Shown in pieces: positions 12,615 through 13,270 of a DNA stretch of 13,800 bases. Origin of the DNA: a virus; the UHGV virus genome UHGV-0225830; one strand, given 5' to 3'. The position numbers and the translations under genes were made by a program. The notes under the pieces were generated by a model. It did no database searches, was not told the DNA's origin, and saw only the letters and a list, made by a program, of their open reading frames with translations. Each line of letters opens with the position of its first letter. Within the stretch, counting starts at the first letter, position 1.

Positions 12615-12650
12615 TACCCTACTCCTTATCGGGAGTAGGGTAGTTTTTAT
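12615..12650. terminator. Bidirectional Rho-independent terminator between convergent genes
   Basis: Perfect 11-bp stem TACCCTACTCC (12615-12625) / GGAGTAGGGTA (12632-12642), loop TTATCG; T-run GTTTTTATT downstream on the plus strand and a U-rich run on the minus strand; lies directly after the minus-strand stop (12647-12649). Confidence 0.75.
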
Positions 12651-13129
12651 TGTTCCGCAGGATGGAGCATTGTTCCAGTGTCAGGCGCTACACCTTCTAT
12701 ACAGCGGAAGAAAGTAATGCCTTTACCATCGCCCGTTTTATATTCTAAAGTAGAATACGCAAACGTTGGCGTTTTTGAAAGTAAACCATTTACACGGTAG
12801 TAACGTTGTCCAGTGATAGGATCAATATTCCCATTAACTTTACCTAATAAATCTTTATAAAGTTGTGGCGACTCAATCTTGCCGTTTGGCCAAGTGGCTA
12901 CCCAGTTAGCACCAGTATCGACTACGGTTACCGACCCTAACATAAGGTTAGTCGAGCTGACGACAGGTTTGTAATTTGCAAAATCTTGCTCTACACCCAT
13001 ACAGGTGTAAATAACCATGTCATGTGGCTCCACCGGCACAGTCGAGAATTGACCGTTACTATTCGGTTGTAAAGCACATCCTGCCAACGAAAAAACACCA
13101 ACCAAAACGATAAGAAAACGCTTTATCAT
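12647..13129 (-). CDS. Lipoprotein (160 aa precursor from ATG 13129), predicted outer-membrane localisation
   Basis: The only convincing minus-strand gene. N-terminus MIKRFLIVLVGVFSLAGC is a signal peptide with lipobox L-A-G-C; +2 residue is Ala; AGGTG lies 6 nt upstream of the ATG. The track start at 13138 is a GTG inside that SD. Confidence 0.75.
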   Translation of the reverse strand: MIKRFLIVLVGVFSLAGCALQPNSNGQFSTVPVEPHDMVIYTCMGVEQDFANYKPVVSSTNLMLGSVTVVDTGANWVATWPNGKIESPQLYKDLLGKVNGNIDPITGQRYYRVNGLLSKTPTFAYSTLEYKTGDGKGITFFRCIEGVAPDTGTMLHPAEQ

Positions 13130-13170
13130 ACTTTTCACCTTTTTTATAAAAAGTTTAAAAAAATATTTTT

Positions 13171-13222
13171 ACAGACAAGCCTTACTGCCGTCTGTCATAA
13201 CAATTAACACCACTTCTATAAT
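13171..13222 (+). promoter_or_regulatory. Possible sigma70-type -10 element with upstream inverted repeat in the divergent intergenic region
   Basis: Perfect TATAAT at 13217-13222, 48 nt upstream of ATG 13271; no good -35 hexamer; inverted repeat ACAGAC (13171-13176) / GTCTGT (13190-13195); AT-rich tract at 13141-13170. Confidence 0.3.
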
Positions 13223-13270
13223 CCGAACAATACTATGCAATCCACCCTGCCAACCACGAGGTAAATACGA

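What the first reader, a model, noticed from the sequence alone, without database searches (positions are those of the whole stretch)
12615..13270. Single convergent outer-membrane lipoprotein gene insulated by a bidirectional terminator
In an otherwise unidirectional array, one gene (12647-13129, minus strand) encodes a lipoprotein with lipobox LAGC and Ala at +2. It has its own AT-rich upstream region and ends in a hairpin shared with the upstream plus-strand cluster. It sits next to a family A gene, near fibre-like genes. Established precedent: phage lipoproteins near receptor-binding genes can mediate superinfection exclusion by masking the receptor (the Llp type in T5-like phages). This protein is larger and I recognise no similarity to those, so the function is open.
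Basis: partly seen in the sequence, partly recalled or inferred. Interest (0 to 1): 0.6.

Follow-up and report, generated by a model that had tools for sequence, protein, structure and literature searches.

The report
Orphan outer-membrane lipoprotein of jumbo phages
A giant Salmonella/Erwinia-type phage carries a small, separately transcribed gene for a protein that is probably lipid-anchored in the infected cell's outer membrane; it is real and conserved, is neither a virion part nor the lysis "spanin", and its job (most likely changing the cell surface to shut out other phages) is still untested.

Summary
Window 12647-13129 (-) encodes a 160-aa lipoprotein precursor (lipobox LAGC, Ala at +2). 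It has its own AT-rich leader and ends 4 nt before a strong two-way terminator hairpin (12615-12642).

The window comes from an unnamed SPN3US-like jumbo phage. The gene is the homologue of SPN3US gp159 (PHROG 9559, unknown function). The family is tiny: 13 representatives among 1.84 billion proteins. Every aligned member keeps the lipid-attachment Cys and two more Cys.

AlphaFold (pLDDT 84.8) predicts a closed beta-barrel with no close solved relative. gp159 is absent from a published SPN3US virion mass-spectrometry table. The clade has a canonical i-/o-spanin pair about 42 kb away, so this is not the spanin.

Seven phage genomes keep TATGAC followed by a stem-loop with covarying stems upstream of the gene, matching the phiKZ late-promoter type.

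The "fibre-like family A" neighbours are head proteins in SPN3US. A real tail fibre sits just upstream only in one distant relative.

Function is inferred. The best guess (0.35) is an Llp/Cor-like envelope modifier that causes exclusion or receptor masking. A weaker lead is an MliC/PhiA-like partner of the adjacent TtsA/SagA-type muramidase. Interest is moderate.

The parts
12647..13129 (-). Coding sequence of the 160-aa lipoprotein precursor (homologue of SPN3US gp159, PHROG 9559). The mature part is 143 aa, pI 5.2, and is predicted to form a closed beta-barrel.
13076..13129 (-). Signal peptide (codons 1-17) and lipobox L15-A16-G17-C18. Ala19 is the +2 residue, so sorting to the outer membrane by Lol is expected.
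   Evidence: The Cys column is conserved in 17 of 17 family members and none has Asp at +2. The +2 sorting rule is established knowledge.
13136..13141 (-). Shine-Dalgarno sequence AAGGTG, six bases before the ATG.
   Evidence: Read directly from the sequence.
13196..13199 (-). TATG motif (TATGAC), the candidate promoter and start site for the phage's non-virion RNA polymerase. The predicted transcript starts at G13196, giving a 67-nt leader.
   Evidence: TATGAC is invariant upstream of the gene in 7 phage genomes, 42-70 nt before the ATG. TATG with G as +1 is the phiKZ late promoter (PMC4666361; PMC12809450). Not shown experimentally for this clade.
13171..13195 (-). Stem-loop at the very 5' end of the predicted mRNA.
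   Evidence: dG -10.7 kcal/mol, z -3.8. All 7 phages fold a hairpin starting at +1 or +2, with different stems: ACAGAC/GUCUGU, GACAG/CUGUU, GACAAU/AUUGUC, GACGA/UCGUC, CCCG/CGGG.
12615..12642 (.). Two-way intrinsic-terminator hairpin, shared with the convergent + strand cluster.
   Evidence: Its position is conserved with compensatory stem changes in 7 phages.
13270..13800 (+). Divergent neighbour: a small DUF7941 protein like SPN3US gp160, which is an abundant head protein. It runs off the window end. It has its own TATG at 13234-13237.
   Evidence: A gene of this kind lies 570-650 bp upstream, divergently, in all 14 SPN3US-like loci examined.
12016..12531 (+). Convergent neighbour: an M15-like peptidoglycan peptidase, homologue of SPN3US gp158.
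   Evidence: phrog_894 'endolysin'. A faint Peptidase_M15_3 hit in L019. gp158 is reported as a low-abundance, non-head virion protein. Its distribution differs from that of the lipoprotein.
11364..12038 (+). DUF1353 protein, labelled 'tail assembly chaperone' in PHROGs.
10666..11256 (+). GH108 plus PG_binding_3 muramidase (endolysin) of the TtsA/SagA family.
   Evidence: PDB matches: TtsA 6v40/6v3z at E about 1e-43 and SagA 7dnp at 5e-12.

Best explanation
The gene makes a non-structural lipoprotein that is exported by Sec, lipid-modified at Cys18 and sorted by Lol to the inner leaflet of the infected cell's outer membrane. A short linker would hold a compact beta-barrel, clamped by a disulfide, against the periplasmic face of that membrane.

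It is transcribed alone, from a TATG-type promoter of the phage's own non-virion RNA polymerase. The mRNA begins with a stabilising stem-loop and ends at a two-way terminator.

Its most likely job is to bind an envelope component through its most conserved stretch (S87-P-Q-L90, within ESPQLYKDLLGK). This would change the cell surface or its entry competence. The effect would be exclusion of further phage, or masking of the receptor so that progeny are not lost on debris. That resembles T5 Llp or Cor in effect, without being related to them.

Shown here: the gene, the lipobox and its conservation, the conserved transcription signals, and the separate spanin pair. Absence of gp159 from SPN3US virions rests on one published mass-spectrometry table. 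Inferred: lipidation, outer-membrane location, the disulfide, the late timing, the target and the exclusion phenotype.
For: Lipoprotein signal:
- Lipobox confirmed in the window and kept in 17 of 17 family members, none with Asp at +2.
- Cys43 and Cys143 are invariant and lie on the first long and the last barrel strand of the model.
- Between 91%-identical relatives the signal peptide differs at 8 of 17 positions but the mature core at only 7 of 130, which indicates purifying selection on the exported domain.

Structure: the AlphaFold model has pLDDT 84.8, with the core above 90, and is all-beta.

Not a virion part: SPN3US gp159 is absent from the virion mass-spectrometry table, while its neighbours gp155 and gp160 are present.

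Not needed for lysis:
- CR5 has a curated i-/o-spanin pair (PMC6139136).
- The i-spanin has homologues in 62 records of the clade.
- SPN3US gp204/gp205 form such a pair; gp205 starts MKLFLAAILVLLLTGC.

Accessory and fast-evolving:
- No hit in Cronobacter phage records, and absent from the syntenic locus examined in Phobos.
- More divergent than its neighbours: SPN3US vs STsAS 62% against 71-89%.

Link to a receptor-binding module: in L003 the order is tail fibre (1024 aa), DUF4376, lipoprotein, all on one strand. In the window's phage the gene lies on the same strand as a block containing a 1727-aa protein of the same length as SPN3US gp168 (paralog family C, baseplate/fibre) and a DUF4376 gene.

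Own transcription unit.
Against: - No homology or fold match to Llp or any known exclusion protein. Pfam, NCBIfam and PADLOC give nothing; PHROGs give only an unknown-function family. Foldseek against the PDB finds nothing below E 0.03.
- The conserved promoter is of the phiKZ late type. Classical exclusion genes act early.
- In the window itself the adjacent 'family A' genes are head proteins, not fibres.
- The steadiest neighbours across 15 loci are the muramidase, DUF1353 and DUF4376 genes, which fits an envelope or peptidoglycan role equally well.
- The family is 45-60% identical across phages of Salmonella, Erwinia and Proteus. That points to a conserved target rather than a host-specific receptor.
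- SPN3US is said to use flagella as receptor (my recollection of its genome announcement, not checked here). That gives no obvious outer-membrane protein to mask.
Confidence: 0.35

Rival explanations
1. A periplasmic regulator or inhibitor of a peptidoglycan hydrolase. On this view the protein is an outer-membrane-anchored barrel built like MliC/PliC/PhiA. It would bind either the neighbouring TtsA/SagA-type GH108 muramidase or the lysin of an incoming phage (the logic of T4 Spackle). The result would be tuned lysis or blocked superinfection at the cell-wall step.
For: - Same overall build as MliC: a lipoprotein anchor, a small beta-barrel, and Cys residues on the first and last strands. E. 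coli MliC has an LSGC lipobox, and PhiA has a Cys76-Cys154 clamp.
- The RB49 LprI-like protein is a BFVD hit at E 6e-4.
- The window's endolysin belongs to the SagA/TtsA family, and PhiA was genetically proposed as the SagA inhibitor.
- The lipoprotein lies 0.6-3.3 kb from the GH108 gene in all 14 SPN3US-like loci. It is absent from Phobos, whose locus also lacks GH108.
Against: - Profile comparison with MliC/PliC aligns only the signal peptide up to the first Cys (probability 12-30%). There is no Pfam MliC hit even at E 10.
- The SGxxY motif is not kept. The Ser position reads T, V, N, G, H, D or E, and only [DE]xGxx[WF] is shared.
- Purified PhiA neither bound nor inhibited SagA.
- The endolysin has no signal sequence, and gp156 is not in the virion table. 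It is therefore unclear when the two proteins would meet before lysis.
- L019 has the lipoprotein but no GH108 gene in the expected place. The M15 peptidase has a different distribution.
Confidence: 0.2
2. A lysis protein for the outer-membrane step: an o-spanin-like or other outer-membrane disruptor belonging to the adjacent endolysin cluster.
For: It is an outer-membrane lipoprotein next to an endolysin, a small amphipathic peptide gene, DUF1353 and an M15 peptidase. The promoter is of the late type.
Against: - No i-spanin partner next to it, and it is on the opposite strand to the lysis genes in the window and in most relatives.
- No C-terminal membrane segment.
- Only 7% proline, and a confidently folded barrel rather than an extended chain.
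- The clade has its own separated i-/o-spanin pair about 42 kb away.
- The gene is missing from Phobos, and Cronobacter phage records (which include CR5) give no hit. These phages still have to lyse their hosts.
Confidence: 0.07
3. A ligand-binding calycin-like barrel, comparable to Blc, YceI or nitrobindin. It would bind a lipid, isoprenoid or other small molecule at the outer membrane, serving envelope upkeep during a long giant-phage infection rather than phage-phage conflict.
Against: The scores are generic for any small up-and-down barrel. The most conserved stretch (ESPQLYKDLLGK) lies mostly in non-strand (loop) positions of the model and was below pLDDT 50 in the first, shallower model, which fits a contact surface better than a pocket lining. 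No family signature was found.
Confidence: 0.15

Closest known systems
T5 Llp (receptor-blocking lipoprotein) and the Cor lipoproteins of T1/phi80/N15
   Same: [quoted passage not shown] It is an accessory gene. In one distant relative (L003) it follows a tail fibre and a DUF4376 gene.
   Different: No sequence or fold relation. The mature part is 143 aa against roughly 60 for Llp (from my own knowledge). It is a closed barrel. The promoter is of the late type rather than early. In the window it is not next to a receptor-binding gene. No target is known.
MliC/PliC lysozyme inhibitors and Brucella PhiA
   Same: An outer-membrane lipoprotein anchor (as in MliC), a small beta-barrel, Cys residues on the first and last strands, and a gene close to a muramidase of the SagA/TtsA family.
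Rz1-type o-spanins (and SPN3US gp205 / the CR5 o-spanin in this clade)
   Same: A phage outer-membrane lipoprotein with a late-type promoter, located near lysis genes.
   Different: No i-spanin partner. It is globular rather than extended and proline-rich. The clade already has a spanin pair elsewhere.
T4 Spackle (periplasmic inhibitor of the tail lysozyme gp5)
   Same: A possible logic: a phage protein exported to the periplasm that blocks the cell-wall step of a superinfecting phage.
   Different: From my own knowledge, Spackle is helical, soluble and made early. This protein is a lipid-anchored beta-barrel with a late-type promoter. No relation was detected.

Membership tests
Bacterial lipoprotein (signal peptidase II substrate) | Positive n-region, hydrophobic core, and a lipobox [LVI][ASTVI][GAS]C within about 15-25 residues of the start | tested here: met
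   MIKRFLIVLVGVFSLAGC. The Cys column is conserved in 17 of 17 members.
Bacterial lipoprotein (signal peptidase II substrate) | Outer-membrane sorting: no Asp at +2 (the enterobacterial Lol avoidance rule) | tested here: met
   Ala at +2 here. The family shows A, V, T or S and never D in the aligned column.
Bacterial lipoprotein (signal peptidase II substrate) | Actual acylation and membrane location | not testable with these tools
   Needs globomycin sensitivity, palmitate labelling and fractionation.
T5 Llp / Cor receptor-blocking lipoproteins | Sequence or fold similarity to Llp or Cor | tested here: not met
T5 Llp / Cor receptor-blocking lipoproteins | Gene next to the receptor-binding or tail-fibre gene | tested here: inconclusive
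   Yes in L003. In the window and 14 SPN3US-like loci the neighbours are head paralogs and a muramidase cluster, and the fibre-class genes lie about 8 kb away on the same strand.
T5 Llp / Cor receptor-blocking lipoproteins | Not a virion component | tested here: met
   SPN3US gp159 is absent from the virion mass-spectrometry table. This rests on one table of one study.
T5 Llp / Cor receptor-blocking lipoproteins | Blocks adsorption or entry when expressed | not testable with these tools
   Needs expression and plating assays.
Two-component spanin, o-spanin subunit | Gene embedded in, overlapping or directly after an i-spanin gene on the same strand | tested here: not met
   A solo gene flanked by opposite-strand genes.
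Two-component spanin, o-spanin subunit | Extended, proline-rich mature chain without a stable fold | tested here: not met
   7% Pro. Confident beta-barrel.
Two-component spanin, o-spanin subunit | It is the phage's only candidate for the outer-membrane step | tested here: not met
   A separate i-/o-spanin pair exists in CR5 (curated) and in SPN3US as gp204/gp205. The i-spanin has homologues in 62 records.
Unimolecular spanin (T1 gp11 type) | N-terminal lipobox plus a C-terminal transmembrane segment | tested here: not met
   No hydrophobic window outside the signal peptide.
MliC/PliC lysozyme inhibitor (Pfam MliC) | Profile similarity to the family | tested here: not met
   hhalign probability 12% and 30%, covering only the signal peptide up to the first Cys. 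No Pfam hit at E up to 10 in any of the 17 members.
MliC/PliC lysozyme inhibitor (Pfam MliC) | SGxxY loop that enters the lysozyme active site | tested here: not met
   The corresponding stretch is [DE]xGxx[WF], with a variable residue where the Ser should be.
MliC/PliC lysozyme inhibitor (Pfam MliC) | Eight-stranded barrel closed by a disulfide | tested here: inconclusive

The most novel reading that the evidence does not exclude
The protein founds a new class of phage-encoded, outer-membrane-anchored barrels that act on peptidoglycan hydrolases. It would be a jumbo-phage counterpart of MliC/PhiA (or a lipid-anchored analogue of T4 Spackle), paired with a TtsA/SagA-type muramidase. It would control either the phage's own lysis or the cell-wall penetration step of superinfecting phages.
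Probability: 0.15. Interest if true: 0.65.

Novelty: new variant of a known kind. Interest (0 to 1): 0.4.

Why it matters
Phage lipoproteins that remodel the infected cell's outer membrane decide whether a second phage can enter and whether progeny are lost on debris. This matters for designing phage cocktails, and SPN3US-like giant phages have been studied as biocontrol agents against Salmonella (e.g. PMC6614189, listed).

No exclusion or envelope-modifying protein turned up for this group in the literature searches done here. This family is a clean, testable candidate: small, non-structural, absent from a sister lineage, and with a genetic system available in SPN3US.

The conserved TATGAC-plus-hairpin start also gives a defined example of a late-type promoter for the non-virion RNA polymerase outside phiKZ. 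In phiKZ, the determinants downstream of TATG are still unexplained.

None of this is surprising in kind, so the value is moderate.

Tried and rejected
- Near-identity DNA search of the phage collection found no match. The window's phage is not in that collection. Protein-level search then placed it in the SPN3US group.
- Pfam, NCBIfam, PADLOC and a PDB sequence search gave no meaningful hit for the lipoprotein.
- The first AlphaFold run with 9 close sequences was too poor to use (pLDDT 58.6). Adding 8 distant members raised it to 84.8.
- Foldseek against the PDB gave nothing significant. The afdb50 library was unavailable.
- MliC homology was tested by profile comparison twice and rejected.
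- The o-spanin and u-spanin readings were rejected.
- I asked whether the lipoprotein depends on the M15 peptidase gene. It does not, because the two distributions differ.
- I looked for gene swapping between phages. The pairwise identities gave no clear sign of transfer, only faster divergence than the neighbours.
- Rfam on 12450-13300 gave only a sub-threshold PyrR match (26 bits against a gathering score of 54), which I dismissed.
- Expression timing from the SPN3US infection proteome could not be checked, because that paper (PMC6384053) is not held.
The 9-sequence one gave only 14 loci, all giant phages of the same group.

Full report

Yes. The only long minus-strand ORF in the window is 12647-13138. 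An AAGGTG Shine-Dalgarno sequence lies six bases before the internal ATG at 13129, so the gene is 12647-13129 (-), 160 codons.

The product starts MIKRFLIVLVGVFSLAGC|ALQ. It has a positive n-region, a hydrophobic core, the lipobox L-A-G-C and Ala at +2. No other hydrophobic segment is present. The mature part is 143 aa with pI 5.2.

The upstream 140 bases are 34% GC against 42.6% for the window.

Four bases after the stop lies a 12-pair hairpin (12615-12642). It folds at -23.3 kcal/mol on the + strand and -19.4 on the - strand (z -5.9 and -5.6; no shuffle out of 200 does as well). It has a T-run on the + side and a weaker one on the - side.

**2. Where the window comes from**

There is no near-identical DNA in the phage collection. 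The protein finds 55 giant-phage records (47-60% identity). These are SPN3US-type Salmonella phages and Erwinia phages such as Asesino, phiEaH2, ChrisDB, Caitlin and Wellington.

The exact protein occurs on contigs of about 222 kb from metagenomes and on a 117-kb contig of a bacterial assembly. The window is therefore from an unnamed relative of the SPN3US group of giant phages. These phages carry their own RNA polymerases (PMC5105663).

The SPN3US homologue is SPN3US_0159, gp159.

**3. The family**

PHROG 9559 has unknown function. There is no Pfam, NCBIfam or PADLOC hit.

An exhaustive profile search of 1.84 billion representatives found only 13 proteins. Two of these are scrambled artefacts.

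In an alignment of 17 members going down to 29% identity, nine residues are invariant. They are the lipid-attachment Cys, Cys43 and Cys143, plus G73, R109, Y111, S126, G133 and G135. S87, Q89 and L90, within the stretch ESPQLYKDLLGK, are nearly invariant.

None has Asp at +2. Between 91%-identical relatives the signal peptide differs at 8 of 17 positions but the mature core at only 7 of 130. The lipoprotein signal is therefore a selected feature, not a chance match.

**4. Structure**

With 9 close sequences AlphaFold gave pLDDT 58.6. With 17 diverse ones it gave 84.8, with the core above 90. The model is all-beta, about ten strands, with the two conserved Cys on the first long strand and the last strand.

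- Foldseek against the PDB finds nothing below E 0.03.
- In the viral library the family finds itself, a few unnamed small phage barrels, and an RB49 protein annotated as LprI-like (E 6e-4).

**5. What it is not**

*Not a virion protein.* In the SPN3US virion mass-spectrometry table, gp155 and gp160 are present and gp159 is absent.

*Not the spanin.*
- It has no neighbouring i-spanin, no C-terminal membrane segment and only 7% proline, and it is globular.
- Kongari et al. curated a separated i-/o-spanin pair in the related phage CR5 (PMC6139136).
- The CR5 i-spanin has homologues in 62 records of this clade.
- In SPN3US the homologue gp204 is followed ten bases later by gp205, which starts MKLFLAAILVLLLTGC. 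This pair lies about 42 kb from gp159.

*Not a member of MliC/PliC.* Profile comparison aligns only the signal peptide up to the first Cys (probability 12% and 30%). The SGxxY loop that defines those inhibitors is not conserved here.

**6. Genomic company**

In SPN3US this is paralog family B. Its members were found in tailless particles, so they are head proteins. They include the very abundant gp160, the counterpart of the gene at 13270. "Fibre-like" is therefore wrong for the window.

I mapped neighbours in 18 loci. In all 14 SPN3US-like loci a small gp160-like gene lies 570-650 bp upstream and divergent. The lipoprotein gene is always flanked by genes on the other strand.

A cluster of radical SAM genes, gp162, DUF4376, the GH108 muramidase, small peptide genes, DUF1353 and sometimes M15 is always within about 4 kb. 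It appears in three different arrangements.

More distant homologues:
- In L019 the gene ends a co-directional array of DUF7941 genes and converges on M15/DUF1353.
- In L003 it directly follows a 1024-aa tail fibre and a DUF4376 gene on the same strand.
- In L008 it sits among long DUF7941 fusion proteins.

In the window's own phage the gene shares its strand with a block that starts about 1.3 kb beyond the window end. That block runs back to a 1727-aa protein, the length of SPN3US gp168. gp168 belongs to paralog family C, thought to be baseplate or fibre.

The gene gave no hit in Cronobacter phage records and is absent from the syntenic locus in Phobos. That locus also lacks the GH108 gene. 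The M15 peptidase has a different distribution (170 records, mostly Vibrio phages, only 8 Erwinia), so the lipoprotein does not depend on it.

The lipoprotein diverges faster than its neighbours.

**7. Transcription signals**

In seven phage genomes the gene is preceded by an invariant TATGAC, 42-70 nt upstream of the ATG. In each case a hairpin starts at the G or the next base, with different stems: ACAGAC/GUCUGU, GACAG/CUGUU, GACAAU/AUUGUC, GACGA/UCGUC and CCCG/CGGG.

In phiKZ, TATG with the G as +1 is the late promoter of the non-virion polymerase. Undefined downstream sequence is also required there (PMC4666361; PMC12809450).

The divergent head gene has its own TATG (13234-13237), also conserved in SPN3US and Asesino. 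TATGNA is rarer in the window than in any of 200 shuffles.

By contrast, non-structural genes in the window are preceded by other motifs, including an exact 19-mer repeated twice.

I conclude that the gene is a monocistronic unit with a late-type promoter, capped by a 5' hairpin and insulated by a terminator. The terminator is itself conserved in place, with compensatory changes, in seven phages. The timing is inferred, not measured; the SPN3US infection proteome paper was not available.

**8. Mechanism**

[quoted passage not shown] What it does there is inference. I rank the options as follows.

(a) *Envelope modifier giving exclusion or receptor masking, like Llp or Cor in effect (0.35).* It fits the location, the non-virion status, the accessory and fast-evolving nature, the tail-fibre context in L003, and the strong precedent. 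A late promoter fits protecting progeny from debris better than blocking early superinfection.

(b) *Regulator of a peptidoglycan hydrolase (0.2).* The build parallels MliC. The neighbouring muramidase belongs to the TtsA/SagA family, and PhiA is the proposed SagA inhibitor. However, the structural score is generic, the motif is absent, purified PhiA did not bind SagA, and a rationale for timing is lacking.

(c) *Ligand-binding calycin-like barrel (0.15).*

(d) *Lysis protein for the outer membrane (0.07).*

The remainder is something not yet thought of.

**9. Novelty and score**

The family is already in databases as "hypothetical protein" or "Lipoprotein". Phage outer-membrane lipoproteins are a known kind. 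What is new:
- it is unrelated in sequence and fold to the known ones;
- it is shown here to be distinct from the clade's spanin;
- it forms a conserved, separately transcribed unit.

I rate it a new variant of a known kind, with interest 0.4. It is a good, cheap experimental target in a phage with a genetic system, but not a surprise.

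Noticed in passing
window 11253-11357 (+): A 34-aa ORF (MNWFAKLLALLWKALTSGRKRKDEKRGFEFFWFL) whose start overlaps the endolysin stop (ATGA). It is amphipathic and cationic. It is conserved in Asesino (gp172) and unannotated in SPN3US and STsAS. Those two phages also carry a second small hydrophobic ORF (MQYDNDDWPKGLMPILLGLMVLTMLVRYMT) in the same gap. These are possible holin or membrane-active lysis peptides.
   Followed up: partly
window 2120-2138 and 5654-5672 (+): An exact 19-mer, CAGATATATATTACCTAGG, occurs twice (0 expected). 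In both cases it follows a T-rich stretch (a hairpin plus T-run at 2120) and lies upstream of non-structural genes. A related TTTACC(T/A)AAAGGA motif precedes the genes at 3529, 7460 and 8663 and resembles the phiKZ middle-promoter element AAanTTACC. These are probably early or middle promoters. The GTG start listed at 5672 lies inside the motif, so the real start is probably the ATG 17 codons further on.
   Followed up: partly
window 12532-12614 (between the stop of the M15-like gene and the terminator): This non-coding stretch is partly conserved across five phages (core GTAA.GC..TCTAAGCG on the lipoprotein strand) and contains small inverted repeats. There is no Rfam family; only a sub-threshold PyrR match. 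Its purpose is unknown.
   Followed up: partly
window 12016-12531 (+): An M15-type peptidoglycan peptidase (SxHxxGxAxD and WLHID motifs). Its SPN3US homologue gp158 was reported in virions but not in heads. In Phobos, and probably CR5, it sits where the GH108 muramidase is missing. In Vibrio podophages its homologues are annotated as the endolysin. The clade therefore seems to alternate between, or combine, two cell-wall enzymes.
   Followed up: partly
window 9265-10603 and 13270-13800; loci L003, L008, L019: In SPN3US the DUF7941 proteins are head proteins. In distant relatives the same N-terminal domain is fused to long C-terminal parts with leucine-rich-repeat-type domains (DUF285, LRR_5; proteins of 572-1478 aa). 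This suggests that the domain anchors variable, possibly adhesive, modules to the capsid.
   Followed up: no
L004 (NCBI assembly GCA_003907995.1, contig RUZX01000011.1) and the P0002 cluster: The window's phage and a 71%-identical relative turn up on large contigs inside bacterial isolate assemblies. One of these is labelled Salmonella enterica serovar Agona, in a cluster of 308 member sequences. This hints that these virulent giant phages are carried along with cultured isolates.
   Followed up: no
window, whole: TATGNA occurs 10 times against 27.8 expected, and every one of 200 shuffles had at least 10. This is consistent with avoidance of a promoter-like word inside genes.
   Followed up: no
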